Shown here piece after piece: positions 23,607 to 55,565 of a DNA stretch of 64,000 bases. The stretch is from Schizochytrium sp. TIO01 (Eukaryota > Protista > Bigyra: Labyrinthulomycetes), in NCBI GenBank assembly GCA_004764695.1, contig SMSO01000033.1, forward strand, positions 2,728,001 through 2,792,000, read 5' to 3'. Positions within the stretch are counted from its first letter, which is position 1, and every line of letters begins with the position of its first letter. Made by a program: the position numbers and the translations under genes. Below the pieces are notes generated by a model. It was not told the origin of the DNA, searched no databases, and worked only from the letters and a program-made list of their open reading frames with translations.

Positions 23607-23890
<284 letters not shown>

Positions 23891-25312
23891 TAATGATTAC
23901 TTCTTCTTAGAAATATTTAATATGGAAAGAAAAAGAAGGCATGATTTTTACCGTGTGCGTTTTAAAATATATCATAATAATACAATATATTTATATGCGC
24001 AATGATAATATTAATACTTTGTTTTAAAAATAATTATTATTATTATTTTGGAAATGAGAATAAGATTAAACAGTAACAAATATTTTGGGAAGGGAGGAAA
24101 AGAGGAAAAAAACATCAAAAAAGGGAAAAAGGAAGGAAAAAAAGAAAGAAAAAAAAGAGGAGAACGTTGGGTTCTAGGCAGTAATGAGGTAAACATTGGT
24201 TCGCCTTTTTAAGCTGTTCAGTCAGGACAATACTTATTCTTTTTATTATTATTTTTTTAATGTACTCATAATAAATTATTATTCTTCTCTAGCTAGCTAG
24301 AGAAGCATAAATTTAATTTTAAAATGTTAAAGCTTGTTGTTTATGATTGTTAGAACTATATGGTTGAGAGCGGCAAACGCCATCGCGAGCGCGCATGAGC
24401 ATAAGCATGAGCATAAGCATGAGTAATTCACATTCTTCACGATGTTGGACCATGGCGTGCGGGAGTTGAGTTTATCACGGTGAAGCTGCGCAGTGGCTTT
24501 TGTTTGCTTGAAATGATAGATTCTTTGGAGCCAAGAGCCAGACGCAGAACATCAACGACGCTCCTCCATATAGAGCCGAGTGCTCTAATGAAATGAAATC
24601 AATGGCTGTGCAGCTATTGAATTGATGGCGAGCGAATGTAGATCGAGGAAGGCAAGTTAGTATCGACAACTATTCACGGCTTTGGCACGAGCAATGTCTC
24701 AAGTTGGCTCAGCTGAACGTAAGTGGCCATTTGTGGGAGTTATTGAAGTTATTAACGTACTTGAAGCAGTCGATGTGGATCTCATTTGGTCTTACTTGGT
24801 AAGCGTGGGAAATCTCGCGAGCCATCGCCAGCATAATTGTTGACGGCACATTGTCACCAAAATGGCAGCATCATCCACGATGGTTGCTACATGGTCTTGG
24901 GCTCAGCAACGAAGTACTGGTACTATACTACTACTACCACCCACGTGCCTACTATAATACTGGAGACTACATTGAGTTTCCTGGGAAGTTGAGATACGTG
25001 GTGGAAGAGCCGACAGATTGAACAATGGCACGCGAGAGCGGGACTAAATGGTTGGGCGAGGAAGCCTATGACGGCTTCCACATCCTGGCAGGATATCGTG
25101 TCACTACTGCCGACTCTTTCTGTGAGACTACTGCGTGCAAAACGTGTGGAGGTAGAATGGTGAAAGTTCCTGAGGGAGATTAAAAAGCGGAGGGGAGAGA
25201 CTATCACAATAATCGTTGCTGATCTTTTGCTTGAACAGCAAGAATTGCTTACTAGGTTTTACTTTTAAACAAAACAAACATCAACATATTTCAGTATTGC
25301 ATTCAGAGAAAT

Positions 25313-26895: not shown

Positions 26896-27215
26896 GACTC
26901 TCCAATTGTGTGTCCTCCAGGTCCTTCCAGCCCAGGTCCGCGAGGCCAGGAGCTAGCTAGCTAGCTAGCTGCAGGGTTCCGTGGAGCGAGAAGAAGCTTC
27001 TCCACTGGATCGAGTGCCGGCTGCCTTGGATTCAGTAGGCCAGGCTTCTTAAATCTCCTTGCCAGCTTCGTTGCGCTGAGACAGAACTGAGTTGAGTCTA
27101 GCTGGTGTCTCTGCTGATTCAAGGCGGTTGGTTTTTTCCCATACGCTGACATTGCCCTGAAGAACGTGAGGAAGCAACAAAGCAAGTCGAAACGATTGCA
27201 AAAGAAAAGAGCACG

Positions 27216-37079: not shown

Positions 37080-40000
37080 TTACAGTGATACTGTGCCTCC
37101 TGTCAGCGCTATGTCGCTATCAATTTCCTTGACTGCCTCGTGGAGGCGTGTTTCCCACTCATGGACACCTCGTTGCAGGTACGTCACGTGTGGGAATAAA
37201 CTTGAAATGAGCTCTTCTAGAAGTGTTGGATAACTTGCGAGGGTATGAGTTGAGTCTGAGCAAAAGCGAGAGGACCATCTTGCTACTGATGAGCCCGCGA
37301 ACGTTTGTGTGAGTGCTTGTAGTGCTTGTTGGGCCTTGCGTGATTCGGCATTCAATACCCCGTCTCTCTCGCGCAGCCGGAGCGTTCCTGAGCGCCGGTG
37401 TGAATTCAGATAGATGAGGACTTGCAAAGACCGAACAAAGATTCGCAATTCCTCTTCCTTGACCAAAGAATCGCAGGGTTGGTATGACTGTGGATTCAAG
37501 CGGACCGGACTGAACTGCGCTGAGGATGGCGAACTACCGGAGAAATTTGCAGCACTATCATGAGCATGCTCTGTTGCTGTATCCCTTCCAGCTCTGCTCT
37601 CACCTCCACTTCCAACACTGCTACTTCTTCCTCCTTCCTCACTTGTCCCTACTAAACCTTGAGAGTTGCTGCTCATCGTTGTCGTTCCTGCTGTTGCTGC
37701 TACTGATGTTGTCTCTGCTCCTCCAATTATTGTTTGAGGCGAGGAAGATCCGTACCCTCCAAAAGGTAGGCTTGGAAGGCTCCTAAAGACAGCAGAAGCT
37801 AAAGCAGAAATCATGTTTCCCTTGTCAAGCACTAAACTCTGTAAAGCCGTCATGCTTACGTGCAGCTGCTGTACTTTAAAAGCAGCATCGTTTACAACAG
37901 CGTCATCGGGAAAATCCCGCACGACCAAATCTAGTAAAAGCCACATCAGAGGTAGGATTTTGACAGGGCTTGGATGCAGGAATGAACCTGGTGAAGTTGT
38001 TTCCGTGTGCACAGCCTGGGTCATTGCGTGAGCTAGCCTTGCCATGACCTCCGCGCCACTACTCAAGCCAGAACTCAATGCATACATCTCAAATGCATAC
38101 CATGAAAGCCATGCACCCCTACGAATCGCACATGCTTCGTATCGAAGAATAATGTCTTCACTACAAAGAACTCGTTGGTAACCCTTTCGTGTTCCCAGTG
38201 AAGCGAGAACTGGAGCCAAGTCATTAGACTCAGTAAACCAGCTGTCCAATGCTGCCTCCATCAGCTCAACGAACCGAGCTGATGAGGTGACAGCTTTGAG
38301 TGCGGCAGAAATGTACAATGGAGCACATGGAGGATTGTGCCTTATCATGGTATGTAAAAGTGTGCCAACGCCCACACCTGTTACCGAAAAATGTCCCTCT
38401 TTCTGTAGACTCGTGATATCCAATGATGCACAGTCCTTATTCGTAAAACCTGTCACTTGACCCCAGTTTGCTGGTTGACTTCCCGTGGAGGATACACCAC
38501 GTCGAGAGAGTCGCCGCATGACTAATCCAGCGGCCTTAAAACTACCTTCTGGTGAGCCTGTGGTTGGTTCGAGGGGTACAACTGAGGCAACACGATCAAA
38601 AGGCCGCTCAAGGCGTGCCGCGGCAATCATGCATGGCAAGACAGATCGCCACATGATTTTCCAGTGCGCCCACTGTAGGTATGCGAGTCCTCGCGTTGGC
38701 CCGTCTGTAGATGGCACCGCGACTCGCGATGATGATGATGGTTCTTCGTTGGATATAGCTCTCGAACTTGCCTGAGCGGACGGTGACCCAGCTATACTTT
38801 GGCCAGATCCATTGCGGCTGGTCTGTAAGTTATTGAGATGCTCTAAAGTTTCGCCACCTTCATGAAATTGCAGTGCAGGGGGGAGATTTTCGGAAATGGA
38901 GCGTAGCACATTTTCCACTTTCCCAAAAACTGCATTTGCAACACCGACGTCTCCTCCTTGAAGCTGAGAACGACTCGCATCAAGGCGAACACACACGACA
39001 CCTGGAACGTTAAGCAAACTTAGAAGTCCCACAAGTGTTGCCTGCATTTCTGCGAGAACTCGTTCACTAGCGGCCCCGGCCGCTATTTCTCGAACACCTT
39101 TTACATGAGAACCTACTTGTGCCCAGGGTGCGTTTCGATCATTCACCAACCGATGTAGGCGCTGCATGCTCTCGAAAAAAAGCATCACGAGAGCTCCAGA
39201 GGAAAAGGGGAGCTTGGCGGACTCTGAGCCTAATTTCCGAAGACAGGCACCGGTGTCACTACTATCCGATGATGAGCTTGATGAAGACAATCCCTCCCCA
39301 ACCCCAACATCTGAACTTTCTCCATTTGTATTTGTCCTTCCGGAGCCACTCTGACAGGTCAGCTGAAGTTGGTTCTCAAGCAAGCCCAAAAGACACCGTT
39401 CACGTTGCAACGCGTTAAAAAAATCGACCTCTCCATTTGTGTTGAGACGTCGCATATCAAATGCACCCAACATAGTCGCAGCCCCAAGCAGACGAATTGC
39501 AGCAACAGATTTTTTCTCTACAGAGTCTAATCCAATTCCTTGCGACTTTGCTTCAGTTGCTTCACGCGCCTTTGTTGACTTAGGCATATCGTTTAACATT
39601 ACTTCAAAATGCAATACTGTGTCACGATAATGGATTGGCGATACATATGTCCACGGTAAGCTATGTGCAATCTCAAAAAAGAATTGGGTAAAGTCCTTCG
39701 GTACTGGCATTTTCTCCTTCATCAGAATCGTTAAGAGTAACCGGAGGACCTGAGCGTAGAAGTCGCTATTGCTCGCCTGGCTATCGGCATCGTGTCTCAA
39801 TATCATTTCTCCGAGATGAGCTTCTCCAGTTAATGTGGCCGAGGAACGCCTCTGGTGAGTTTCTGTCAGAGTCCAGTTCAAATGTTCCAGAAGGTGTCGT
39901 ACCATATGAAATGTTGCATCAGTGGCTTCATAAGTTTCAACTAGCCGAACAAACTCTGCAAGAATTGAATCACAGAGACTCCATGTCTCCCAGGGAAGTT

Positions 40001-43000
40001 TTAAAAGAGCTCCTGCAATGGTCTTTGACACATACTTTTGTGCTGAAGGGGCGAGATCATCAATATAAAGCCACCATACCTGGTCCAGAACCCAAAATGG
40101 CTCTATTTGTTGTGCTGCAGACACGAGATCCCTGACGCAGGCAACAAAGCTTTTTAAAATTATCCCCGCTTGAGGCTCTAGAGCAACACTCCATGGGGCT
40201 TCGTACCTGCGATCTGATGGACCTGCCTCCTCTTGATTATGCTCTACACTAGATCTCGATGCTGAAGAACCTGAATTTGATGATGAACCTGAAGAAATAC
40301 CAACTCGATGCTGAGTTTTACGCGTTTGGCGTCCAAGAGTTGGAACCTCAACTGGTTCACTATCAAGATAACGCGTCGTAAAACCAGGGTTCATAGGCGA
40401 AAGTGCTTGCTCAGGGTGCTTCTGGAGGTATTCAGATAGCAACCAAGGCCTGAACAGAGTAGCCAGCGAGCCCCATGTACGCACGAGAACTTCTTTGGGC
40501 CAGATAGACTCATCGTATGCACTATTTTGCAGATGTGCACACATCAAAAGCACAAGCTTATGCGTGAGACGAGATATGTGTTCTACCAACTCGAGTTGTG
40601 TCCACTGTTGAACTAATGATCCTGGATTTGTACAAACTGTTAAAGCATTCCCACTGCCGTGCATTCTTAACTGGAAAAAATGGCTTCCAATTACCTCACA
40701 TGCCGTATAGAGGGTCTCCAACGAGAGATTAGAGTTCCAAATTCCAGAGCCAAGCTGTACTAGTACAGCATCCCAAACTTTATTACTTAGTGGAAGATTC
40801 ATTTGCTCCCCACCGCTCGATGGTACATAAATACGTAGATTTTCGGCTCCAGCACGTGAAATTTGCTTTCCGTTTTTAATTGTGCCGCTTGAACCTGTCA
40901 TAGACGAGCTCAAACTAGACTGTTTTCGTTCATCACGATCATCATCGTTTGCAAAGTGCTGCAACTCATCGATATCATCTATTTCTAAAGACTTTGCACC
41001 AATGAGAAGCTGTACCACGTCGATAAAGTGGTCCTCGGGGTCTGCAGCACAGATCTCAAGTAAAAGATCAAGATGAAATTCAAAAATCCTTGCTTCGGCC
41101 GCAACATCTTCGGGCGAGACATATGCTGGTAAGCCATCTCCTTGTAAATCTTGGGATTTCCAACTCTTCTGACGAAGAACGCTTCCAACCATGCAAAGAA
41201 GCTTCACACGCAATTTGCGGCTTGGTTTTAGTGCCAACCAGTCTGAAAACTCAAAATGCTCTAGAACCAAAATCATGTCTCGAGCTGGGATGCGAGGCGC
41301 GGCAGTCCACGCCATTGTATAAAAATCCAGGAGATATTCAACGCGATTTGAAGGTCTGAAAAGAGGACTTAAAAGGTGAATTCGATGTGTATCGTCTAGC
41401 ATCTTGGACAAAATAAGCAAGGTGTCATCCTCGTGATCTCGGGCAAATGCATGGCCCATTTTACTAATCGCGGTCCAAAGAAGTCGTTGCGCGGGCGGGA
41501 AAGAGCGTGTGCCTGGAGTTTCTACATCCAGGAGATCTCGAAACCAAATTAGACCCCGGCGATGCGCCTCCACACTTAATGTTGCGTCTTCCACCAGATT
41601 GGCATGATTACATAACATTTTTACAAGAGCAAAGATGGTAGCCACAAGCCCACAAATATGTTGTTCACGCTCCGAGGCTCCAGCCAGAGCTGTTGCTGAT
41701 GACAACGAATCTGCACTGCTAGTAGATAGCATACGTTCTCGTCCATGGCGTCCCCGGGTTACAAGAGGAGCAGGAGTCCATCCGAAAGACAAGGCCAGCC
41801 AACTTTCCCAGGCCTCCCCGAGCCTGTGGTCAACATCCTGGTCTACAATTGACTCTTCGAATGGAATGTCGAAACGATATGGCTCTTTATCTTTGGTGCT
41901 TGGGCCTTGCTGATAAACGGTTTCCACTCTTGATTGTTGCACATACAAATGGGGAAGTAAATCTTGCACTTCCTTGGCAAGTTCGCGAGCATGAGCAGTT
42001 TGTTCTGCGTACTGGCGCGCATAAAGCTGAAGTTCCTGCAAGAATGATGCGAGATCTGCCTTTCTATAATCGAGATGCTGTGGAAGCACTGGTTCACGGA
42101 AGAGGTAAATCGGGGCAGGGCGGTAATTTCCGAGGGTTTCCGACGCTGAACCGCCTCCAAAAAGGGTACTGCCAGCAGCAGTAGATGAGGTGGCATTGCT
42201 ATTGTGCAACATGTTTGCTCCAGCACGACCAGCGCTACCATGATGGCTTGCCGAGTTGATGGATGAAGCGTGGCGCCTTGCAGCACGACTCGGTGACCAC
42301 GAGCCAATCGAGACTAACATATCTTCACGAAATGGGGCAAGATCGATAATATCAAACCACATCAATGATCTCGCGCTCACGCCTAAATGGGATGAGGGTG
42401 ACTCTCTTATCTGTGATAAGCTAGAAGAAGAAACAGCAGCTGTGGCAGGGCGTAGAGATTCATGTAAGCGCTGTAACAATGGTGACTCCAGAATCGATTG
42501 TAAATGTGATACACAAAATTCGGCTCCAAGACGGGAGACCTGTACCGATTTACCTGGCTGGCCAAGCCAGCTGTGAGGATCTGGGTCTCTTAACCACAAT
42601 GCAAACGCCCCAAAAATTGAAGACATATAGTTGAGTTGTTCTATACCAGGGTTGTGCGAATTGAGACAACTGTCGCCTGTCACGGAGTGATCTCCAACGC
42701 TGGACATTGAGCTAGAGCGACGTCGTGCAACTGAGAACCGACGACGGGATGCTTTCCGGAAGGGTGAGGAACCAAGACCCCCAGCAGATGAAGAAGACGA
42801 GATCGATGTTGTTTTCATCGCAACAGAAGGATGTTGTCGCCGTGCAAGGTCTTTGAAGTGAAGCTGGAGCTCTCGAGCCCTTGTTAGTAATGCCTCGCGA
42901 ACATTGGCACGCCGTGTTTGCTTTCCCGCTCGAGTAAGGAAGCGAATGCCAAAGATTCGCTCATTAGAACCTTTGGAAAAGATTAATTTCAAAGTGATTT

Positions 43001-46000
43001 GCCAGTATAAAAATAGGAGAGGGTGGTCAGGGCTCAACTTGAGTGCGTAGTTAGCCCATCGATAGATTCGAAATTGAGAAAGCTTTTTCAAATCAACATG
43101 GAGAGCATGGTGTGCATTTTTGAATGCACCGTCGCCTTCTTTGGATACGAGCTCAGTTTCCATAGCGGTCCTCAAGCGATCAAGATCAACGTCACAATTT
43201 GTGGCCCGAGAAAGAAATTCACCTGTGCGTTGCCACAAAGGATACTCGCGCGCAGTTTCCACAAGCAAAGCTTCGAAGGAAAGCCAATCTACATGGGATA
43301 CTATTTCAGATACATCAGTACGAGCAAAGAAACCGCTTGCCGGAGGGGCAGGGACGATCGAGAGTGCCGTAGGATCTATATGCTGTTGCTGTTGTTCATC
43401 AAGAGCATTTGTAGCATTGACAAGACTATCTACGACATTCAGCAGCCTACCATCGACTTCAGAGATTAGATCTACGCTACGTAGTTCGGACTGCACGCAC
43501 ATACTGGCCATAACTATACCATCAAGAACAGTTCGACACGAAGCACGTGTTCTCCATTGAGGAATACTCAAAATCTGGTCCATCCAGAAATTTACACAGG
43601 CCCGAGCTATACGTTCTCGTACAGGTATTTGGTTTGGTTCCTCACAAAGAAGCGAGGAACATACGTGCGCTTCAACTAACGAACGAAGTCGCCCGGCTGC
43701 ACTTTGCCCGACACGTGTGATCAGGGTTTCAAATGCTGAGTTGTTACTTGAGGTTGATTGTGCGTGTGATACAATAGAGCTAGGGGATTGGGTGCCATCC
43801 TGCTGCGATTTTGGGCCATGGCCTGCAGCAGGTAGATCAGGCGTCATGACACGCGAAATGAGGTCACCAACAAGGCCAGAGCCCATTGCGACGATACCTG
43901 GCCCAGACTCCATGGCTCGGTCTCTGGCTTCAACTGATTCGAGGAAAGGAAAAAGCCATTGTCCAGGTCCAGGTAAAAGCTGGTACGTGAAAGTCGCCTG
44001 CTCATCAAACAACTCGAATGCATATTGGGGCATGAGATTTTGCAGTGCACAAAGATATGCTCTTTCAACAAGCTGCCAATTTGTAGACACCCCCGGGGAA
44101 GAAAAATGCAATAAAGATTTCAGAGGTACCCATCCGACTTTTTGTACATGATTGGAAGTCTCTAGAATGACAAAGGAAAGAATCGGATGCAGAAATTTAT
44201 GGACAGCCTCTTGTGCTGATGGGCTTGGGGTTGTTGTTTTTGAAGAAGAACTGGAACTATCCAGAGTCTTGGATGAGTCCTCTGCCATACTACGGGCACG
44301 ATGTAAGGCTGTGTTCCAAAGATGATATAGAGTGCCACCTGGGCCAGCGTCTGCTGGGTTGCTTGCATCAAGCAGTGGAATCAAGGGTTCGCCTGACGAA
44401 GATTTGTACATAGATAAAGAAAGGAGTGTAAGCCAACACCAGTGCTCAAATCGTGCCATGTCCTGTGAGTTGGTATAGTCTGTAGTCATTGGGATCCAGC
44501 GACGAAGAGTGGCAAGCGCTCCCGTATGTGTAACACGTTCTAAATGAGGCAAGACAGTTCGAGCCATACAAGCCTCCGCGATAATGAGAGCAATCGATCG
44601 ATGTATCCGCGCGTCAAGATAAAGCTCCCCGTTAGCATCTGCACTATAATCCAGTTCGCTGAGAATAGCCATGGCCATCTCTGTGTAAGCATCTAAAACC
44701 GGGGCAGTCTCTTCTTCGGAGCTAGTTCGGGGCATTAACCAACCACGAATAATATCAATATCGTCAGGCAAGTGAGGGGACCACTGACGAAGGGGCAATG
44801 CTTGAAAAAGCTTTAGGCCGCGTTTTGTAGTTTGTTTTGTCAACTCTTTATCATGCATTGACACAAAATGCAGGACTTCGCTCGTCAACTCGGGATGAGA
44901 TTTGCAAACCGAGGCTAACATATCGCAAATAGGATGCAACAGTTCATCGTGAGCTAACTCACAGTCAGCTTGAGTAAAGGCTGCGGTAGATATCTCAAGA
45001 ATCACAGCTTGCGCAAGATCTTTGCTGCACGCGGACCCAAGCGAAGATAAAGCAACTGCTCGATACAAAGCTTCGCCATGTCGAGGTGTTGCACTTATTT
45101 GAGTTTCCATACGTGCAGTTGCCTCGTCAACCTTTTTCGACCCAGATGCATGAGCGGTAGGAGGCGATGCCAAAAGAGTATCAACATCGGCATCACTAGT
45201 CTGTAGTACTTCATAGAAGCGTTTACGCACAGCGGGATCCGAATCCACAACAACTTTCCATTGTTCATAGCTGCAGATGTACTCATAGCGCTTAAACAGT
45301 TTTGCGGGCTCTGTCAAGTGCGGAGTAGCGGATTTTAATTTGCTAGAAGCACTTGAATGACGCTGTGCAGTCTTGACCGCAGCTTCGCCATCCTTTCCTC
45401 CAGGTACTGTATAAATGGCATCCATATTACAAAGATCAGGCTCGTGATAGCCTAGTATTAAGCCCAAAAAGAGGCGCCACGCAGCTTCGCAAGACAGGCG
45501 CTCTAAAGGTAGGTCTTTAATTGCAAGCCGAAGGTTTTTATTGCTACTAGTCATGACATAGGTGGCAGCGAGAAGGGTCAGACGATCAAAGTGCATCTGT
45601 GCGACAGCCCATGCTTCTGTGACTCCCCAGCACTCCAGGTCACGCAAAAAGTCTCCGGCACGAACGACAAGCCTAACAATTGCGTGAGCAAGCATACGTC
45701 CAAGCTGTGCAAACCACTTGAGACGAGTTGCCGCAGCGCCAAGGGAGAGAACATGTGCGTGAATTCGAGCAAATATTGCTTTAATTTGCTCTGGCATCAG
45801 TGTAGGCGCCATGTCGGAATTTGGGAGGAGATGTTCAAGAGCTAGTTCATAAGGGCATTGCTCTAATAGCGCAATATAATCTGCCTCAGAAAGACGACGA
45901 TCCAGAGGGCCTGCATCATCAACAACTTCGTAACCATCTGCAGTCCCAAAAAGTGGTTCAGCATGATCCAAAAGTGATTGTACCATGGCAAGACAGACCT

Positions 46001-47882
46001 GCACGTCGTCATCAGCCCATTCAAGGTCAGCGAGCTGAGCTGCAGAGGATGTTTGCATATGGATCAATGTCCCATTGCCCATACGATATGAGCTCGGGCC
46101 AGCTTGCAACAAAGGAACTGCCCATGCACCTTCGGGTGAGCCAACCCCAGGAAATGCAATAAGATGTTTGAGCAGAAAGAAGCGATCTTCGAGGCGTCCA
46201 CTCTGAACGAGCGCCGCACCTAAGTGAGCAAGCCAAGCTCTGATGCACCGTAGAAAGCGATTCCTCCAGCGTGATTGGGAAGGTAAAGCTTGTACGCGTT
46301 CGTGTTCAAGCTCCCGACGTGTTCGGAGCTCGAAAGATATGAGCACTGTGAAGTATATACGTGCCAGGTTCTCGGCCCGAGCATGCCGAATTGACGGAGA
46401 TGTATTTTTTGCACGATTTGACGAATCTGTACCACTAACCCCACTCAACTCCCGAGAAGCGTCTAAGCGAGGACAGAAACGTGGAGATAGGGCCAACTCC
46501 TCATAAATTTTCTGTTCTACATTGTAGGCTGTCATGGTCCTGTCAAAACCAAATGTCGTAAGATCCTTTGATCTTAAATCCCCAATGCGGGCCATATCAA
46601 TCTCGAAAGCGCGTGCTTTCTTTCGTGAGAATGCTGCGTGCTGAAAAGACACTGATGCCTTCACTGTGCCTGTGCCAGAACGCGTTTCTTGGGTTTGCTC
46701 TGCACGACCATTCTTGCGTGCCCAGACTTGCCCTCGCTTGAGACGACAATCTTCAATACGCCGCGTAAGTTGGCCTACGAAGTCTTCGTAGGATTCCTCT
46801 GCTGCTCGGAATTTACGAAGCAGTTGGGTGAATTCATCTTCCACGGGCTCAAGGCCTTCTGGAGCATTCAGGTCCAACGCTGCAACCGTGTTGTAGTGAA
46901 GATTGGCAAGCGGTGCCGACTCAGCGTTCGAAAGTATTTTTAGCACTGTATGAGGCGGCAAAACTTGCGTCAAATATCGATTGTCCGCGGTAACATTAAT
47001 GAGTTCCACAGGAGCGGCGGTGACTGTCGTAAAGTCAGGTGATGCATGATGTAACGTTGGAGCGGATGGCGCTGATGGTAGAGTTTCGTCATCAAGAAGG
47101 ATATCAGGTGCTGGCATAGGCAGCGGAACCATCGTTGGGTATAAAGGTGCGCGTGCTTGATGATTGCTAAGCCTTTGCTCCGAGGTCGGTCGAAGGGTGT
47201 GAGCGAGCTGGGCCAAGGCAGTCGTTGCTTCCTTCGCTGACATTTTGTTTGAATGTACAGCGACAGCGTCTTCCGCATTGTCAAAGTCAATTTGTTGCTT
47301 GCTGAGCGTTCTATCTTGGTGCTCAGGAATTTCAGTTCTTTCTACCGTTCCAGTGTCGATTTTAACGCTCCCATCTTGGACAGACCTGTTCAAAGAGGTT
47401 CCCAAGCCGTCATCGGTATCTTCCGCCAGAGGGGATCGAGGGGGTAATGGCGGTGCCGACGGCTGTACCTCCGTTGGTTGATCTCTGTGCTGTGTTTCTA
47501 AGTCAATTTCCAGGACTCCTTCATCGTCATAAAATCTTGAGTTCTGCGCAGAAGATCTCTCTGTTGTGACCATTAACGGTGGTGCACTAGGTTCCCAAAC
47601 TTGTCTATAATCACCGTCATCATCCCTGGGTGGAAGTGCTGGCGCCGAGGGTTCATGATCTGCACCACCTTCGTGAAGTTCGAGCTTTGGCAATAATTTC
47701 GCAAGTTCTTCGGCGTCGGTAAAGGTCTCTTGTTGCTCGTGCGACGGATAGAGCAGGTGTAGCGGCACGGGTTCTATCGACGCCAGGCCTTTTCTCAAGG
47801 CTGTTGTTCCCTCGGCACCATCGCCAGAGGTCACGCCAGAGCCCGAGGCGGGCCCTGCGTCCTGATCGCGAGACAACTCCAT
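37080..47882 (-). CDS. EPG5: Ectopic P-granules autophagy protein 5-like tether, intronless, 3600 aa
   Basis: DEFTQLLRKFR...DCRLKRGQVW and WLAHLGAALVQSG..EDRFFLLKHL..FPG....WAVPLLQ resemble recalled EPG5 N-terminal blocks; likely ATG at 47882 (MELSRD). Confidence 0.8.
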   Translation of the reverse strand: MELSRDQDAGPASGSGVTSGDGAEGTTALRKGLASIEPVPLHLLYPSHEQQETFTDAEELAKLLPKLELHEGGADHEPSAPALPPRDDDGDYRQVWEPSAPPLMVTTERSSAQNSRFYDDEGVLEIDLETQHRDQPTEVQPSAPPLPPRSPLAEDTDDGLGTSLNRSVQDGSVKIDTGTVERTEIPEHQDRTLSKQQIDFDNAEDAVAVHSNKMSAKEATTALAQLAHTLRPTSEQRLSNHQARAPLYPTMVPLPMPAPDILLDDETLPSAPSAPTLHHASPDFTTVTAAPVELINVTADNRYLTQVLPPHTVLKILSNAESAPLANLHYNTVAALDLNAPEGLEPVEDEFTQLLRKFRAAEESYEDFVGQLTRRIEDCRLKRGQVWARKNGRAEQTQETRSGTGTVKASVSFQHAAFSRKKARAFEIDMARIGDLRSKDLTTFGFDRTMTAYNVEQKIYEELALSPRFCPRLDASRELSGVSGTDSSNRAKNTSPSIRHARAENLARIYFTVLISFELRTRRELEHERVQALPSQSRWRNRFLRCIRAWLAHLGAALVQSGRLEDRFFLLKHLIAFPGVGSPEGAWAVPLLQAGPSSYRMGNGTLIHMQTSSAAQLADLEWADDDVQVCLAMVQSLLDHAEPLFGTADGYEVVDDAGPLDRRLSEADYIALLEQCPYELALEHLLPNSDMAPTLMPEQIKAIFARIHAHVLSLGAAATRLKWFAQLGRMLAHAIVRLVVRAGDFLRDLECWGVTEAWAVAQMHFDRLTLLAATYVMTSSNKNLRLAIKDLPLERLSCEAAWRLFLGLILGYHEPDLCNMDAIYTVPGGKDGEAAVKTAQRHSSASSKLKSATPHLTEPAKLFKRYEYICSYEQWKVVVDSDPAVRKRFYEVLQTSDADVDTLLASPPTAHASGSKKVDEATARMETQISATPRHGEALYRAVALSSLGSACSKDLAQAVILEISTAAFTQADCELAHDELLHPICDMLASVCKSHPELTSEVLHFVSMHDKELTKQTTKRGLKLFQALPLRQWSPHLPDDIDIIRGWLMPRTSSEEETAPVLDAYTEMAMAILSELDYSADANGELYLDARIHRSIALIIAEACMARTVLPHLERVTHTGALATLRRWIPMTTDYTNSQDMARFEHWCWLTLLSLSMYKSSSGEPLIPLLDASNPADAGPGGTLYHLWNTALHRARSMAEDSSKTLDSSSSSSKTTTPSPSAQEAVHKFLHPILSFVILETSNHVQKVGWVPLKSLLHFSSPGVSTNWQLVERAYLCALQNLMPQYAFELFDEQATFTYQLLPGPGQWLFPFLESVEARDRAMESGPGIVAMGSGLVGDLISRVMTPDLPAAGHGPKSQQDGTQSPSSIVSHAQSTSSNNSAFETLITRVGQSAAGRLRSLVEAHVCSSLLCEEPNQIPVRERIARACVNFWMDQILSIPQWRTRASCRTVLDGIVMASMCVQSELRSVDLISEVDGRLLNVVDSLVNATNALDEQQQQHIDPTALSIVPAPPASGFFARTDVSEIVSHVDWLSFEALLVETAREYPLWQRTGEFLSRATNCDVDLDRLRTAMETELVSKEGDGAFKNAHHALHVDLKKLSQFRIYRWANYALKLSPDHPLLFLYWQITLKLIFSKGSNERIFGIRFLTRAGKQTRRANVREALLTRARELQLHFKDLARRQHPSVAMKTTSISSSSSAGGLGSSPFRKASRRRFSVARRRSSSMSSVGDHSVTGDSCLNSHNPGIEQLNYMSSIFGAFALWLRDPDPHSWLGQPGKSVQVSRLGAEFCVSHLQSILESPLLQRLHESLRPATAAVSSSSLSQIRESPSSHLGVSARSLMWFDIIDLAPFREDMLVSIGSWSPSRAARRHASSINSASHHGSAGRAGANMLHNSNATSSTAAGSTLFGGGSASETLGNYRPAPIYLFREPVLPQHLDYRKADLASFLQELQLYARQYAEQTAHARELAKEVQDLLPHLYVQQSRVETVYQQGPSTKDKEPYRFDIPFEESIVDQDVDHRLGEAWESWLALSFGWTPAPLVTRGRHGRERMLSTSSADSLSSATALAGASEREQHICGLVATIFALVKMLCNHANLVEDATLSVEAHRRGLIWFRDLLDVETPGTRSFPPAQRLLWTAISKMGHAFARDHEDDTLLILSKMLDDTHRIHLLSPLFRPSNRVEYLLDFYTMAWTAAPRIPARDMILVLEHFEFSDWLALKPSRKLRVKLLCMVGSVLRQKSWKSQDLQGDGLPAYVSPEDVAAEARIFEFHLDLLLEICAADPEDHFIDVVQLLIGAKSLEIDDIDELQHFANDDDRDERKQSSLSSSMTGSSGTIKNGKQISRAGAENLRIYVPSSGGEQMNLPLSNKVWDAVLVQLGSGIWNSNLSLETLYTACEVIGSHFFQLRMHGSGNALTVCTNPGSLVQQWTQLELVEHISRLTHKLVLLMCAHLQNSAYDESIWPKEVLVRTWGSLATLFRPWLLSEYLQKHPEQALSPMNPGFTTRYLDSEPVEVPTLGRQTRKTQHRVGISSGSSSNSGSSASRSSVEHNQEEAGPSDRRYEAPWSVALEPQAGIILKSFVACVRDLVSAAQQIEPFWVLDQVWWLYIDDLAPSAQKYVSKTIAGALLKLPWETWSLCDSILAEFVRLVETYEATDATFHMVRHLLEHLNWTLTETHQRRSSATLTGEAHLGEMILRHDADSQASNSDFYAQVLRLLLTILMKEKMPVPKDFTQFFFEIAHSLPWTYVSPIHYRDTVLHFEVMLNDMPKSTKAREATEAKSQGIGLDSVEKKSVAAIRLLGAATMLGAFDMRRLNTNGEVDFFNALQRERCLLGLLENQLQLTCQSGSGRTNTNGESSDVGVGEGLSSSSSSSDSSDTGACLRKLGSESAKLPFSSGALVMLFFESMQRLHRLVNDRNAPWAQVGSHVKGVREIAAGAASERVLAEMQATLVGLLSLLNVPGVVCVRLDASRSQLQGGDVGVANAVFGKVENVLRSISENLPPALQFHEGGETLEHLNNLQTSRNGSGQSIAGSPSAQASSRAISNEEPSSSSRVAVPSTDGPTRGLAYLQWAHWKIMWRSVLPCMIAAARLERPFDRVASVVPLEPTTGSPEGSFKAAGLVMRRLSRRGVSSTGSQPANWGQVTGFTNKDCASLDITSLQKEGHFSVTGVGVGTLLHTMIRHNPPCAPLYISAALKAVTSSARFVELMEAALDSWFTESNDLAPVLASLGTRKGYQRVLCSEDIILRYEACAIRRGAWLSWYAFEMYALSSGLSSGAEVMARLAHAMTQAVHTETTSPGSFLHPSPVKILPLMWLLLDLVVRDFPDDAVVNDAAFKVQQLHVSMTALQSLVLDKGNMISALASAVFRSLPSLPFGGYGSSSPQTIIGGAETTSVAATAGTTTMSSNSQGLVGTSEEGGRSSSVGSGGESRAGRDTATEHAHDSAANFSGSSPSSAQFSPVRLNPQSYQPCDSLVKEEELRIFVRSLQVLIYLNSHRRSGTLRLRERDGVLNAESRKAQQALQALTQTFAGSSVARWSSRFCSDSTHTLASYPTLLEELISSLFPHVTYLQRGVHEWETRLHEAVKEIDSDIALTGGTVSL

Positions 47883-48609: not shown

Positions 48610-49670
48610 AAACAGCGGGTGCCAACGTGAGGAGTGGCGGCTTGTGCATATGCAAGGAGCCACTATTGAATGATTGCGAGGTGCCTTCTACCGCATTGCC
48701 AGCGGCATCGGCTTCATTGTGGGAAGGAAGTCTGTGCACCCTGGCTGCAGGTTGGAGAGAATGACTGCGTAATGGATCATGGACAAGGAATTGGGGAAAC
48801 TTAGCAAGAGTAATGCGGAGCTTCTCAAGAGGTGGCGTTGGGGTTCAAGTTGTTTGCGCTAGATCTTTGGGATTTTGTCAAGTATTCTCGTAGAAACGAT
48901 CCTGGTGCTGTACTTGGGAAACCAATTCTGGCATCAAAAGGAGGAAAGCTCCAGGCTTGAATAAAAGGCGTTGAACTAAGGTATCGAGCTCATTACAGGG
49001 CGCATGGGGATGGGAAGTCCAAATAGTTTGGTGACACCTTGTAGGGTATGTGCTTAACGAGAGTGTATAAAAACTCTGATTCCCAGGTACAGCATGTTAC
49101 CAAAGCCATGATGAAGTCTTTGGGATTTACTATACGTTTAGAGCCATGAAAAGGGTAGCTGCGAAGTCCAGCTTCAAGTTTATTTGAGTATACGTTTAGA
49201 GCCATGAAAAGGGTAGCTGCGAAGTCCAGCTTCAGGTTATTTGAGTATAAGTTTAGAGCCATAAAAAAAAAGGGTAGCCAGCTTCAGTAGATCCCTGTTA
49301 CCACTTGACCTGGGTTGGCCACTGCGAAACTATTTTGCAAAGTCCAATACTCGGTTCTGAGGTACCAATGAGTTGAAACCAGGATCGGCAGCCAGTGTGC
49401 GGATGGTGGTTGCGGCCTTCTGTTTTTTACTAAGCCCATAGGCCTATATCACCAAGCCACTTGCAGCAGGACCATTTGCGTACCTCTCGATGAGGCATGG
49501 GAACTTGAAGGTGTTAAGAGATATTCCTGCATTTGTCATCATCGAGAGCTACCTTTTATTGTATAAACACATTCCCTGAAGTTAAGCATCTCTAAGGGAA
49601 GGTCCAGAAACGTCCGTAGTTGACTATTTTAAAAGTGTCCACGACAAACTTGCAGGTGCGCACGATGTGT
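48610..49670 (+). mobile_element. CRE-like relic (GGLG motif through Zn knuckle and REL)
   Basis: VRSGGLCI (48627), GAFY, RHRLHC...APWL (48703), RW/LGFKLF, FGDTL*GMC, MKSLGFTIRLEP (49111), KPGSAA, CVPL.EAW. Confidence 0.6.
49131..49287. repeat. 58-bp tandem repeat, ~2.7 copies
   Basis: tatacgtttagagccatgaaaagggtagctgcgaagtccagcttca.. twice, plus an internally deleted third copy. Confidence 0.9.
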
Positions 49671-50029
49671 AAAAGGAATCGACATTGCCTGCACTTGAAA
49701 TAAACGTGGATGGAACCTAGGTGAATCAAACAATTGAAGGAAGGGGCTGTTATTGTTAAACATCACGTTGCCTTGATGACTTCCGAATCAACTACCATGT
49801 GTACTGCGAACGATGCTGACTTAGTTTTATGCTCCAAAGCACGTGGGTGATTGAAAAATCATGCAACAGCCCCATTCTGCAGCACGAGTTGTACCTATGT
49901 AGCATAAGTTGCATGGCAGCATTTAGTGGGTAGGTAGGTACCGAGTAGTAACTAACACAAAAATCTCGAGTTTTCTAATTAACTCCGTAGTAGTAGTACT
50001 CAAAGATGCTGCCGCGGCAGTTTATGTGC

Positions 50030-50610
50030 AAGTTAAGATAGGGAATCTTCCTGAACGGTTTACGTATTCGCCTCCTCCGTTTGCTGGAGTTTCTTGAAAG
50101 CTGACGTTGTTAGATCTTCAAATGGCTGAAGAAGCTCGAAACTTGACACTCGTCAACATCCAAATGATCGCCGTCACCTTATGCGCTATGTCGCCTTCAC
50201 CAAGTTTAATAAGATTTTCACACAAAATTAAAAATTAAAATTAAAAATTAACTTTGCAAAGGTGGGAGCTGAAAGTGAGAAGGAATACACACTCGATGAT
50301 GTAGGTACCTATCACCAGGCTACGCAATCCATGGTTTCCAATTGAACGTCCGCAGGCCTCAAGAACCCCGTAGGTAGTATCTTATTTTGATCACATAAAG
50401 CACAGCAGGTCAACTTGGGCAAGAGCTCCCCGGCTGACCGAGGCGCCTCTCACATCATGATAGCTGCCTGTGCAAAATAAAAAATAAAAAAGTCACGAAG
50501 AAAAGACCATTGTGCTCTTATGAAGTACCTACTAAGAATCTAAGAGTATGATGGTCTCAAATTCCGGCTGGGACCGCCAAGCACCTACCCTACCCTCTAC
50601 TAGGGGACAA
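50030..50610 (+). mobile_element. CRE-like relic (RT regions 1-4) directly upstream of the Roco gene
   Basis: GNLPE (50041), LKADVVR (50094), MAEEARNL, HQV, GAE, RNPWFPIER, DRQAPTLPL. Confidence 0.5.
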
Positions 50611-50758
50611 CTACCCACAATGCGCAGGGGAGGAATTAGTTGAAGCAGACTTGGATTATCCAGCTCTAGCTCTACGTAATTGAAGCAAAACCCTATCGCC
50701 AAGGCGGAGTTTGATCGGGAAGCGAAGTTTATCGAGCATCGAAGAGAGGAAGTTGAGT

Positions 50759-53700
50759 ATGTCGGATAACCCGATTGTTGTAGAGGCTCTTCAAGAGCTT
50801 GCTAAAGGGGCAGCCAATCTCAAGTAAGTAAAGCAACAGAATGAAAGTTTGGTGCTGGACGATTTATTAACATGACAACGATGCTAGCCTGTCTCATGGA
50901 CGTATCAATGCTGAGGACTGCAAGACGCTTGCCTTAGCACTTGCCGATAATACTACATTGACATTGCTCAAGTAAGTCGCTGTGATTTTGTTTTTTTGAG
51001 CAGCTTACTGCGTTGTTTTCGAACTCTTTCTGTGAAAGGTATTCTAACTTTGAGTGTTGTTTCTCATCATGTTTTAGTCTGTACGTCAACGAGGTTGGTC
51101 CCGAAGGCGCAGCGGCGTTGGCAGAAGCACTGGAAACGAACAGTGCTCTCACGACTCTGAAGTAAGTTCTACTTTGTTGCTCTAAGACTGTTCCGAATCT
51201 CTAACGCATCGAGAATTGTCGTGTTTCTTAATAGCCTTTACAAAAACAAGGTTGGTGATGCTGGAGTTGAGGCTCTTGCAGAGGCTCTCAAGGTGAATAC
51301 GTCGTTGGCAGTTTTGAAGTAAGTGCAAATTGATGGCAGCGGTTGGTTGTCTTAAGACATCTCAGGTTTCAAAGTAGGAAAACTAACAAGCTCATCGCGT
51401 TACAAACAGCCTATATGGTAACAAAATCTCTGCCACGAGTATGGAAGCCCTTGCCAATGGGCTGCGGGTGAACACGTCTTTGCAGAAGCTCGAGTAGGTT
51501 GCCTTGAAATTTTGCATTGCTCAGACTATTAGATTGACTCACGTTATTTGCATGTATTCTTAGACTTCGGGGAAATCAACTTGGCGATGAAGGTGTCGCA
51601 ATTCTATCAGATTTTCTGAGGGTAAACGCCTCGCTGAAGGATCTAAAGTAAGTTTCGAACATTAAGTTGTTTGCTGCTGCAATCCTTAGTGATGCTGAAT
51701 TAAGTGACTGACTTTTTATTGATGATTTATGCAACAGCCTTGCAGACAACAGCCTCGGGGACGAAGGTATGCAGCCTCTTGCAGACGCGTTGATGGAGAA
51801 CACATCGTTAACGAATCTCAAGTAAGTTTCCCTGTTTGTTTTTGGTATTTTGAGACGATATCTAACATGAAAATAAATCTCCTTTCCTTAATGTTTCGTT
51901 ACTGTTTGTTTCCTGCAGTTTATACGGCAATGACATTCAGTCAGAGGGAATTGTGATGCTGTCTGAGGCAATCAAGGTCAACACTACGTTACAATGGCTG
52001 GGGTAAGTCGATAAAGCTGTTTGTTTTCAAGATGGCTGGTCAACAAATGTCCTCAAATAGTTCACTAACTTCTATACCTACCATGTGGTGTCACAATAAA
52101 ACAGACTCACGCGCAACGATATTGGGGCAGATGGCGCTGTAGCTCTTGCTGAGGCTTTAAAGGAGAACTCCTCCTTGACTTGGCTTAGGTAAGTTTCACT
52201 AGACTCATTCACTCATCTAACCATTGCAAAGTGGTGGTTGGAATAAGAGAGAGGATGCACGCTGACGTGAATATAACGTGATAACTTGTTCTGTAAACAG
52301 TCTCTACAGCAACGATATCGGCACTAGAGGTGCTTTAAGCCTCGCAGCGGTCCTTAAAACGGACAATCGGTCGTTGACTTCGCTGAAGTAAGTGATTCAT
52401 TTAGCAGGATCAGAAGACAGCCGACTGACAACGTAATACAATGCTATGGACGGTATTCTACTTTTATTCAATTGCAGTCTCTTCAATAACCGAATCGGAG
52501 AAGAAGGCGGGGAGGCATTCCTAGATGCACTGCAAGAGAACACATCGTTGCTCGAGCTTGAGTAAGTTTTGCGAGATTCGAGTATATTGCAGGGCGATTC
52601 AGTGCATGGGAGAGCTAATGTTGTTATATGAAATGGTAATATCCATGTTGGCATGCAAACAGCCTCGGAGATAACAAGATTGACCCGGTCGACGGTGCTC
52701 AGATCAAGGCCTTTCTTCAGCAAAATAATGAACGCCAATTGCCTGAAGACAATCAATCTGAAAAGTGGCTAGCAGCTGTGCGCAAGGCAATCGAAAACAA
52801 CGATGAGCATGCATGGGGTAGAGTGAAACTCATGGTTGTAGGGCAAGGAGCAGCAGGGAAAACTTCTACGGTAAGATCTCTTCTGGGCCTACCCTTTGAC
52901 ACGGCGCACGCATCAACAGAGGTTGCAGATCTACATCGTACTCGAGCAAAGGACTTTGCGGAACTTCCTGATGACGTAGGGGAATTCGACATGCAGGTTC
53001 GTAAGGCAGCGATGCGGCGCCTTCGTCCCTTGGCACAACCAAAGCATAAGAGTTTACGGAGGAGAGTTATTAACTCGATGCAGCGCTCTCTTAGCCGCGC
53101 AACCTCTTCATTCTCCTTACTCGCTGCAACGTCAAACTCGTCCCTTCCTACTGTTGAAGCTATCTCCTCAACGCCAATGTTGTCAGAGGAAGAGACCGCG
53201 AGGCGGTTTGAACTAACCAGTGAGGATCAGGAGTTTCTTCAAAGCTCTTATACCTCAAATGCAAAGCTAGACTTCGATGTGAGTTTTACAATCTGGGATT
53301 ATGGTGGGCAGGAAGTTTTTTATGCCCTGCATCATATTTTCCTGACAGATAATGGCCTATACCTGGTGGTCTTTGACATGGCTGAACTTAAATCTCCAGA
53401 TGGTCAGGGAGAGGCAATCCAAACTCTGAAGTTTTGGTTAAAGAGCATTAGGCTTCATGCGCCCTATGCACCAATTGCTCTCATTGGTACACACTTGGAT
53501 CAAATTGATAAGGCGGACTTGAGTGTTATCAGCAGTATCATTCGCAATAAGGTTCAAATCGTAGAATACCCGCAGTGCATGACTGGCCCAAAAGGTAGAC
53601 CCTTTTTTCCAATCAACAACAGCGCACCAGATAAGGACCAAATTGCAGAGTTGAGAAAGAGGATTGTCAATGTGGCGCTTGACCAGGTCTATGTTCGAGA

Positions 53701-55186
53701 GCAGGTCCCACTTGCTTGGCTCAAAATTTATGAAGATTTGATGCAGTGCAAAAAGCAGTATGTGCTTTCTTCTGACGTGGCGTACATTGCATGGCAATAC
53801 GGGCAAAAGCCAGGACAAGTGTCCGAGATGTTGCGTTACTTTCATGAAGCTGGGGTAGTTGTATACCTGGAGGCGTCTGAAGAACTTCAACATATAGTGG
53901 TAATTGACCCGCAGTGGCTGCTTGATAAACTAGCCCGCGTTATTGCTGATGACGCTCATGTTGAGTCAATTTACGAGACTGGTGAGCTTGTGGAAGCCGG
54001 GCTAGAGGCAGAATTCGTTGAGATGCGTCGAAAGGCGATCGCAACCCGCAGATTATTAGAATTTCTCTGGAATGATGAGGAGGTAGACTACCTCATTGCT
54101 TTTATGCGTGAAAACATGCTTTTGAGTACCTGGGATTTTAACCCCAAAGAGACCTCATATCTCATTTCAGGCTTGATTTCTGATATGATGGAGCCCATCG
54201 ATACAAGCAGGTTCACGGCAGGATGTGTTTGTGAGCTTGACTTTTCTTCAACATTTTTGCCAACTGGGGTCTTTCAACGCCTTGTAGCTCAATGCGCGCA
54301 TTACTCAACCAGACCTGAAGTCCGAGGCGATTGGCCTCTCACCACTCCTAAGGTTGGACGAGATAGTGCCAGAATGGCATTCGGTCAAAACAACTTTGTT
54401 ATTGAAGTTATAGACAATAGGATTCGATTTCGCATCCACGAAAGAGCTATGGCGCCAGCTATGGTAATAAAGTTTCTTGTTTCCATGTTTCGTCAACAGC
54501 AGCAGTCTTTCTTTAGGAAGCTTTCCTGGGACCTTTATCTTTGCAGCACAAAAGGGGACTGGGCTTTGTATAGTAAGATTGAAGGAGATCGTCAATCAAA
54601 CCAGAAATATTCTGAAAGCGTCGATGGCGTCTTTGTTGATTTGAGCGATTATGAAAGCTTCTTTGACGAGAAGGTTGGACGCCTCGACACTGATGAGGAC
54701 GGCCTAGTGGTACCTCATTATGATATCCCACCTTTGATTGCTAATGAAAAGACTCACCTTTTTTTGAGCCATATAGAAAAGACCGGGGGGAGTATTGCAG
54801 AGGCTCTGGAGGAAAAACTTTCAAGACGTGGCCTGAAGGTGTGGCTTTCACAAAAATTTCAAGGGAATCTCAATCGTGCGTCTATGGTCCGGGGTGTGAA
54901 AGAGACACACACATTTGTGTTAATTCTCACGAAGGATGTCTTCTCAAGTGCCGCTGTCTGTGATGAACTTCAGACTGCAATTACTGAAGAAAAGAACATT
55001 GTGCTTGTACACGAGAGTGAGACACATCGAGAAGGATACTTTCCGATAGTAGAGTACAAACCGTTGTTGCCATCGTTCTGTCGCACTCTCTTGGACGATG
55101 TCAACTCCATACCCATTCGTCGTAGATACTATGAAGAGGAGGCGTTTCTGAAAGAGCTCATTCGTCGTTGCATCCAGCCGTATTGA
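50759..55186 (+). CDS. LRR-Roc-COR-TIR (Roco) protein, 12 exons, 1143 aa predicted
   Basis: Exons 50759-50823, 50888-50971, 51078-51161, 51235-51318, 51410-51493, 51564-51647, 51738-51821, 51919-52002, 52105-52188, 52301-52387, 52478-52561, 52663-55186; all GT-AG phase-2 introns; RI-like LRRs; Roc GQGAAGKTS / WDYGGQ / GTHLD; COR VIDPQWL, FLPTGVFQRL; TIR LFLSH...LKVWL...FVLILT...VCDEL. Confidence 0.92.
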
Positions 55187-55565
55187 CCCAACTGAGATAT
55201 CTTCTAACAAACATCATCTTAATATTGTTTTTCAATTCATGATTCCAGACCTTTCGGCGTGTAGGAGTTGCACGATGATTATAAAACAGAGCAGTGAGAG
55301 CTAGATTTGTTCAACCCTTGAGCGTCTCTTGATTTCACATTCAATTTTATGCCCTGAACAAGTAAGCATTTAAAGTCGATGCAATTCCAGTATAATGTAT
55401 TTTACTGAATAGTTTTTTTATTATTTTTTGTCAAGGTGAGACGATAGGTATATGAGTATTGCTACATAAAGGTTTATATTATCAAGTCCGAGTCTGCAAG
55501 ATTCAATGCAAAATGAAATACGATCATTGATGCAACAAGAAACATACGGACACATAATGCTAGTT

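What the first reader, a model, noticed from the sequence alone, without database searches (positions are those of the whole stretch)
50759..52663. One-LRR-per-exon cassette array: ten interchangeable phase-2 exons
Seen: exons 2-11 are 84 nt (one is 87 nt), each encoding one 28-aa RI-like LRR, with every intron at the same position inside the LxxLxL strand. Exons end in AA, GA, GG or AG, so any skip or shuffle stays in frame and cannot create a junction stop. Exposed positions vary (LSHG, LYVN, LYKN, LYGN, LRGN, LADN, LYGN, LTRN, LYSN, LFNN, LGDN). This gene holds 11 of the 12 coding introns identified in the window. Knowledge: brown algal (Ectocarpus) Roco genes have one-LRR exons proposed to diversify by shuffling, and animal NLR LRR exons have similar sizes. 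Inference: a diversifiable ligand-binding surface in a protist.
Basis: partly seen in the sequence, partly recalled or inferred. Interest (0 to 1): 0.8.

Follow-up and report, generated by a model that had tools for sequence, protein, structure and literature searches.

The report
One-repeat-per-exon Roco-TIR receptor gene
A marine protist gene builds the front end of a Roco GTPase protein from ten same-sized exons that each encode one leucine-rich repeat, laid out like the human immune sensor NOD2, and ends in a predicted NAD-cleaving TIR domain; it is likely an immune-type receptor whose family gains repeats by exon duplication, but this copy looks stable rather than actively shuffled.

Summary
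The exon array is real. Spliced contigs from four studies confirm all 11 phase-2 introns. The gene encodes a 1143-aa LRR-Roc-COR-TIR protein of a thraustochytrid-like protist. Its closest named relatives are 34 Hondaea fermentalgiana Roco proteins. The repeats are NOD2-type (28 aa), and the intron position matches NOD2 intron 8. The TIR resembles SARM1 and keeps a glutamate aligned to SARM1 residue 642.

This locus is not hypervariable. Exon number and order are unchanged in four DNA and four RNA-like runs. The exons are only 32-64% alike, the introns are unrelated, and LRR polymorphism is mostly silent (4 replacement, 9 silent). Three RNA-like runs give one full-length contig; the fourth shows one low-depth in-frame skip of exon 10.

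The family does evolve by this layout. Three distant marine Roco genes have the same 84-nt exons. One shows recent exon-plus-intron duplication with changes piled on the concave face, as do Hondaea repeat pairs.

Verdict: a new variant of known modular LRR genes (brown algal ROCOs, NOD/NLRC), likely an NLR-like receptor. Immune function is untested.

The parts
50759..50823 (+). Exon 1 coding part: start codon and N-terminal cap, ending at the same phase-2 position as the LRR exons
   Evidence: junction 50823-50888 in 3 of 4 RNA-like runs; a similar short first exon precedes the arrays in L005 and L008
50888..52561 (+). Ten one-LRR exons (nine of 84 nt, one of 87 nt at 52301-52387), NOD2/RI-type 28-aa repeats, separated by phase-2 introns of 70-112 nt
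   Evidence: profile of the exons matches PDB 5IRM best (E 4e-24; its identity as NOD2 is recalled)
52301..52387 (+). Exon 10 (87 nt), the only exon seen skipped, in frame
   Evidence: joint from exon 9 to exon 11 in run X15 only, depth 2.16 against 5.96 for the normal joint, 23 letters on the short side
52663..55186 (+). Single last exon: final partial LRR, Roc GTPase, COR and TIR domains, stop codon
52841..53623 (+). Roc GTPase domain with G1 (52841), G3 (53294) and G4 (53486) motifs
   Evidence: Pfam Roc E 7.7e-18; motif positions; fold matches LRRK1/2 and Chlorobium Roco
53708..54112 (+). COR-A domain
   Evidence: Pfam COR-A E 4.9e-12, above its curated cut-off
54761..55183 (+). TIR domain, SARM1-like; glutamate codon at 54965-54967 (residue 1071)
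   Evidence: Pfam TIR_2 E 2.7e-8; invariant in 11 of 11 and 6 of 6 aligned family members; aligned to residue 642 of SARM1
54545..54555 (+). 11 bases present in the window but absent from all four RNA-like runs; that allele would end at residue 935, before the TIR
   Evidence: table 4; not checked in DNA runs

Best explanation
This is an expressed LRR-Roc-COR-TIR (Roco) gene of a thraustochytrid-like protist whose ten one-repeat exons likely arose by old tandem duplication of an exon-plus-intron unit, and which likely works as an NLR-like receptor with a now stable sensor. Shown: gene structure, splicing, domain order, and a stable exon order in the strains seen. Inferred from relatives: unequal crossing-over copies a whole 84-nt exon with its intron, adds one repeat in frame, and the new copy then changes mostly on the concave beta-sheet face, so the family retunes its sensor over evolutionary time rather than within a cell. 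Inferred from known families: a ligand bound on the LRR concave face shifts the nucleotide-linked monomer-dimer cycle of Roc-COR, which brings TIR domains together to cleave NAD+ and signal or kill the cell. Ligand, enzyme activity and immune role are untested.
For: Splicing. Domains. Old array here: exon pairs are 32-64% identical (mean 48%), and the best intron-pair score (22) is at the level of shuffled introns (median 21). No second copy of any exon at 80% or more in 4 DNA runs. LRR SNPs are 4 replacement and 9 silent against 636 and 207 sites (p about 0.001, transition bias ignored). Live duplication in relatives: in L003/L008 two introns differ at 1 of 52 bases while two exons differ at 11 of 84 (Fisher p=0.03), and 7 of the 11 lie in the 18 concave-face bases (p=0.001). 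L006 also has look-alike neighbouring introns. In one duplicate repeat pair from each of three Hondaea proteins, 11 of 18 concave against 1 of 24 exposed helix positions differ (p=7e-5). Receptor-like family: 34 Hondaea proteins share the Roc-COR core, 28 with TIR_2 listed, with LRR, WD40 (8), kinase or SAM additions. TIR: SARM1 and TIR-1 are the best solved matches, and the invariant Glu aligns with SARM1 residue 642. Roco monomer-dimer cycling: PMC6337361 passages. TIR multimerisation switches on NADase: PMC8494770 passages.
Against: No functional data. The same repeat class occurs in flagellar and cytoskeletal proteins (LRRC34, radial spoke protein 15, DRC5, tropomodulin). This locus shows no sign of positive selection: 0 of 4 replacement SNPs are on the concave face, which is too few to test. 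The duplication and concave-face evidence comes from distant relatives: one metagenomic gene pair of unknown organism, and automatic Hondaea gene models with pairs picked after seeing them. All four RNA-like runs carry an allele that lacks the TIR yet is still transcribed; this fits a dispensable defence gene but also a TIR that does not matter. No whole genome was held, so paralogues in this organism could not be compared.
Confidence: 0.6

Rival explanations
1. The array is an active splicing cassette: cells make many isoforms by skipping LRR exons to vary or switch off the sensor, as reported for human NLRP3 and Ectocarpus ROCOs.
For: Every skip stays in frame without a stop. One in-frame skip of exon 10 is seen in run X15. 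Eleven introns are kept in a window whose other long genes are single open frames.
Against: Three of four RNA-like runs, including the deepest (depth 144), give one full-length contig only. The skip is one contig at depth 2 with a 23-letter side. In 18 pair comparisons of related transcript-derived proteins, no gap removes a 28-aa LRR unit. Contigs hide rare isoforms, so this is weak.
Confidence: 0.13
2. The protein is a non-immune Roco scaffold or signalling switch (cytoskeleton, motility, development), and the exon array is a neutral relic of how the repeats were first duplicated.
For: Purifying selection and a stable order at this locus. RI-type repeats are common in flagellar and cytoskeletal proteins. 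Dictyostelium Rocos act in chemotaxis and division (PMC11378527).
Against: A SARM1-like TIR with an invariant Glu, a large family with swapped N-terminal repeat domains, and concave-face change after duplication in relatives.
Confidence: 0.2
3. The locus is under ongoing Ectocarpus-style genomic shuffling, exchanging exons with other loci.
For: The layout permits it, and relatives show recent duplication.
Against: No spare, broken or inverted exons in the window, and the introns are too short to hold one intact exon with flanks. No near copy of an exon elsewhere in 4 DNA runs, and the same order in all of them.
Confidence: 0.05

Closest known systems
Brown algal ROCO genes (Ectocarpus; PMC3341825, PMC11378527)
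   Same: LRR-Roc-COR order, one LRR per exon, phase-2 introns, expanded family, proposed immune role, concave-face diversification.
   Different: Those have 72-nt, 24-aa exons of another LRR class, spare intronic and inverted exons, strong shuffling and many splice variants, and no TIR. Here the exons are 84 nt and NOD2-type, there is a C-terminal TIR, there are no spare exons, and the order is stable.
Vertebrate NOD/NLRC genes (NOD2; PMC6642158)
   Same: One 28-aa LRR per exon with the border in the beta strand. The repeat profile matches PDB 5IRM best. NOD2 intron 8 follows c.2798, which is phase 2 and 25 codons after Gly908, the same offset as here (that Gly908 sits just before the repeat's Asn is recalled).
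   Different: NLRs use a NACHT ATPase, with LRRs at the C-terminus and CARD or PYD at the N-terminus. This protein uses a Roc-COR GTPase, with LRRs at the N-terminus and TIR at the C-terminus.
Bacterial LRR-Roc-COR-TIR proteins and Chlorobium Roco
   Same: Clusters of bacterial proteins carry Roc and TIR_2, some with LRR. The Roc-COR fold matches 3DPU and 6HLU.
   Different: No introns; those clusters list LRR_4-type repeats; only distant similarity.
SARM1 / TIR-1 NADases
   Same: Best solved matches for the TIR (E 2e-6), with the Glu aligned to residue 642.
   Different: No ARM or SAM domains; activity not shown.
Hondaea and Aplanochytrium Roco proteins (database annotations)
   Same: 27-48% identical core; many with the same 28-aa repeats.
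   Different: Named only by automatic best hits (LRRK, Rab, NOD2); no description of the family or its exon layout was found in the searches run.

Membership tests
Roco family | Roc GTPase followed by COR | tested here: met
   Pfam Roc and COR-A above cut-offs; Foldseek best hits are LRRK1/2 and Chlorobium Roco
Roco family | Intact G1, G3, G4 motifs | tested here: met
Roco family | GTP hydrolysis and nucleotide-linked dimer cycle | not testable with these tools
   inferred from PMC6337361 passages
Ectocarpus-type shuffling ROCO | One LRR per exon, phase 2 | tested here: met
   PMC11378527
Ectocarpus-type shuffling ROCO | 72-nt type I exon, consensus with GxxPxxL | tested here: not met
   84-nt NOD2/RI-type exons against PMC3341825
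Ectocarpus-type shuffling ROCO | Spare, broken or inverted LRR exons in introns | tested here: not met
   six-frame profile scan of the window finds only the ten coding exons
Ectocarpus-type shuffling ROCO | Rearranged LRR domain between alleles or close paralogues | tested here: inconclusive
   no rearrangement in 4 DNA runs under 1% apart; paralogues not available
Ectocarpus-type shuffling ROCO | Positive selection on concave residues | tested here: inconclusive
   not seen at this locus; suggested in duplicates of relatives; no codon-model test run
Ectocarpus-type shuffling ROCO | Multiple LRR splice variants | tested here: inconclusive
   one low-depth skip in 1 of 4 runs; contigs only
NLR (NOD/NLRC) | NACHT or NB-ARC ATPase | tested here: not met
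   Pfam finds Roc, COR-A, Ras and TIR_2 only
NLR (NOD/NLRC) | 28-aa LRR per exon with border in the beta strand | tested here: met
   (one NOD2 intron compared)
TIR NADases (SARM1-like) | TIR fold with catalytic glutamate | tested here: met
   that SARM1 residue 642 is catalytic is recalled
TIR NADases (SARM1-like) | NAD+ cleavage on oligomerisation | not testable with these tools
   needs an assay

The most novel reading that the evidence does not exclude
Labyrinthulomycete protists have their own NLR-analogue family: a Roco GTPase switch joined to a SARM1-like TIR NADase, with exchangeable sensors (NOD2-type LRR or WD40). The LRR sensors grow by duplicating an 84-nt exon cassette with the same intron position and phase as NOD2 and diversify on the concave face. 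This would be a third route to intracellular immune receptors, in a single-celled stramenopile.
Probability: 0.4. Interest if true: 0.75.

Novelty: new variant of a known kind. Interest (0 to 1): 0.5.

Why it matters
One-LRR-per-exon genes are described in brown algal ROCOs and vertebrate NLRs. This joins the NOD2-type exon to a Roco switch and a TIR effector in a single-celled marine protist, which raises a testable question: is the shared intron position ancient or convergent? It also points to an expanded candidate immune family (34 proteins in Hondaea, against 'no more than four copies' reported for non-brown-algal SAR species in PMC11378527). A natural TIR-less allele gives a ready comparison. 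As a case of active exon shuffling, this particular gene is a negative.

Tried and rejected
No whole genome is held, so paralogues in this organism could not be catalogued. Viral contigs: 37 pattern matches, 0 relatives. Earlier scan findings: nothing. Metagenome scan: 22 loci, of which 4 show splice-bounded 84-nt exons (3 distinct genes; L003 and L008 are identical over the LRR region). L001 has a repeat hit without splice sites, and the other 17 gave no hit, many having little upstream DNA. Looking for intron read-through ('YV') in 14 Hondaea models gave 6 with a hit, of which 4 lie beside an LRR or cap; suggestive only and not used. Transcript-derived proteins in the same 90% clusters: 0 of 18 comparisons show a missing LRR unit. 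The tree is the quick version only (the careful search did not finish); it left out L014, L009 and P0036 (motif not found) and most later hits. It places the gene with Hondaea P0003, P0004 and P0006 (support 100) and L003 and L005 on a separate branch; no claim on order of events is made. The first concave-versus-other comparison counted semi-buried positions as 'other'; it was redone against exposed helix positions. One search used a miscount for the last exon (10/8); the correct figure is 11 replacement and 7 silent. No run is on record as RNA; the four laid are guesses, supported by GT..AG joints that the DNA runs lack. Six SNP rows were not shown, so the LRR count may miss a few. No structure of the LRR part was predicted and no complex prediction was run.

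Full report
Observation. The exon layout is as described. Twelve exons join into one open frame of 1143 aa. Nine internal exons are 84 nt and one is 87 nt. All 11 introns are phase 2 at the same place in the LRR beta strand, and 0 of 121 end/start combinations gives a stop. Contigs from four studies were laid on 49800-55500. Three show all 11 GT..AG junctions in a single contig; the fourth shows 10 of 11. Four DNA runs show no joints. The runs are RNA only by the tool's guess, but the joints speak for spliced transcripts. Other long genes in the window are single open frames and one further intron candidate is visible; the full count of 12 was not verified.

What it is. The last exon (52663-55186) encodes Roc, COR-A and TIR_2, each above its Pfam cut-off. 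The model (mean pLDDT 82) matches LRRK1/2 and Chlorobium Roco, then the SARM1 TIR. Of 61 homologues, 32 are named Hondaea fermentalgiana, one Mucochytrium and one Aplanochytrium; a profile search adds two more Hondaea proteins. The organism is therefore likely a thraustochytrid. Among the 34 Hondaea proteins, 28 list TIR_2 and 8 list WD40; others carry LRRs, a kinase or SAM, and several models are partial. A search of 50% representatives gives 290 hits at 1e-30. Of 161 stored proteins with the Roc motif, 49 have 1 to 14 detectable repeats and 112 have none, many being fragments. Several of the LRR-bearing ones are from Aplanochytrium. A profile of the exons matches PDB 5IRM best (NOD2 by recall), followed by flagellar LRR proteins. 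A family TIR profile matches SARM1 and TIR-1 best, and the invariant Glu (residue 1071) aligns with SARM1 residue 642.

Is this locus diversifying? Mostly not. The exons are 32-64% identical to each other, and the introns are no more alike than shuffled ones. The window holds no spare or inverted exon. In four DNA runs of four organism labels, exon number and order are unchanged: two runs span the array in one piece and two in two collinear pieces, and no other sequence at 80% or more was laid. These strains differ from the window by 3 to 18 bases in 2 kb, so the test is shallow, and one run is nearly identical to the window. The SNPs listed in exons 2-11 are 4 replacement and 9 silent, pN/pS about 0.14, p about 0.001 against neutrality with transition bias ignored. 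None of the 4 lies on the concave face, which is too few to judge. Between the ten repeats, concave positions are not significantly more variable than exposed helix positions (0.19 against 0.26, p=0.18). The one sign of skipping is an in-frame loss of exon 10 in one run at depth 2.16 against 5.96. Contigs drop rare forms, so minor skipping remains open.

Does the family use the layout? Yes, on limited evidence. Of 22 metagenomic loci, four show 84-nt exons bounded by AG and GT in the same register: L003 and L008 (one gene, 3 exons), L005 (4 exons) and L006 (at least 1; the contig is cut). Their Roc-COR regions are 30-40% identical to the window's and their organisms are unknown. In L003/L008 the three introns are near copies (two differ at 1 of 52 bases), while two exons differ at 11 of 84 (p=0.03). 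Seven of the 11 differences lie in the 18 concave-face bases (p=0.001). L006 also has look-alike neighbouring introns. In Hondaea, nine repeat pairs at 65% identity or more come from three proteins. Taking one pair per protein, 11 of 18 concave and 1 of 24 exposed helix positions differ (p=7e-5). These pairs were chosen after viewing and rest on automatic gene models. The no-stop rule fails in L005, so it is not a family constraint.

Mechanism. Shown: structure, splicing, domains and stability. Inferred: the array grew by tandem duplication of exon-plus-intron units, which also explains many introns in an intron-poor window. Inferred: new copies are retuned on the concave face. Inferred from known families: LRR ligand binding shifts the Roc-COR monomer-dimer cycle (PMC6337361, passages) and clusters the TIRs into an NADase (PMC8494770, passages). 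I put this at 0.6. Rivals are a non-immune scaffold (0.2), active splice diversification (0.13) and ongoing genomic shuffling (0.05).

An extra finding. All four RNA-like runs share one haplotype with an 11-base gap at 54545. It would end the protein at residue 935, before the TIR. Database protein P0001 shares 8 of its 11 substitutions with that haplotype but is full length, so the gap is likely a recent loss in one lineage. It was not checked in DNA.

Comparison with what is known. Brown algal ROCOs have 72-nt phase-2 one-LRR exons, spare intronic exons, shuffling, splice variants and no TIR (PMC3341825, passages; PMC11378527, parts 1-3 of 6 and passages). Most NOD and NLRC genes encode one 28-aa LRR per exon with the border in the beta strand (PMC6642158, passages and section 6). 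NOD2 intron 8 follows c.2798 (PMC8432186, passages): phase 2, 25 codons after Gly908, the same offset as here (the place of Gly908 in its repeat is recalled). Roc with TIR occurs in bacteria and in Chondrus. So the gene is a Roco, works like an NLR by inference, and is neither an NLR nor an Ectocarpus-type shuffling ROCO. Searches listed no paper on this family or its exons. The library lacks most subscription papers, I saw only the top rows of the larger result lists, and I did not open the supplements of PMC11378527, which include Schizochytrium ROCOs and may bear on novelty.

Verdict. A real feature and a new variant of a known kind. Interest 0.5.

Noticed in passing
window 54545-54555: 11-base gap in all four RNA-like runs; that allele is transcribed but would lose the TIR. 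P0001 shares most of the haplotype without the gap.
   Followed up: partly
window 54030-55157: In the one haplotype compared, the COR-B/TIR half has 11 replacement and 4 silent differences, against 0 and 3 in the Roc half and 4 and 9 in the LRR exons (LRR against distal p=0.056).
   Followed up: partly
L008 1555-1967 (same gene as L003): Three near-identical introns around two 87%-identical LRR exons: a recent exon-plus-intron duplication with changes on the concave face.
   Followed up: yes
L001 230-700: A relative with two upstream introns but its last LRRs in one exon with the Roc domain, so some repeats in the family lack the intron.
   Followed up: no
proteins P0017, P0033, P0062, P0041, P0031, P0008: Family members with a TIR-like domain at both ends, a doubled Roc-COR, a kinase, SAM domains or WD40 repeats in place of LRRs.
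   Followed up: no
window 53289-53340: A second contig in runs X15 and X17 matches only the Roc G3 motif region, which suggests at least one paralogue in this organism.
   Followed up: no
window 37080-47879 (- strand): An open frame of about 3600 aa with no Pfam match, divergent from the Roco gene.
   Followed up: no
   Followed up: partly
window 49131-49267: A 58-bp unit in 2.4 copies, 95% alike, in the spacer upstream of the Roco gene.
   Followed up: no
window 23607-23891: A perfect TTTA microsatellite of 71 copies.
   Followed up: no
window 27150-29489: A 779-aa open frame ending in a single Myb domain.
   Followed up: no
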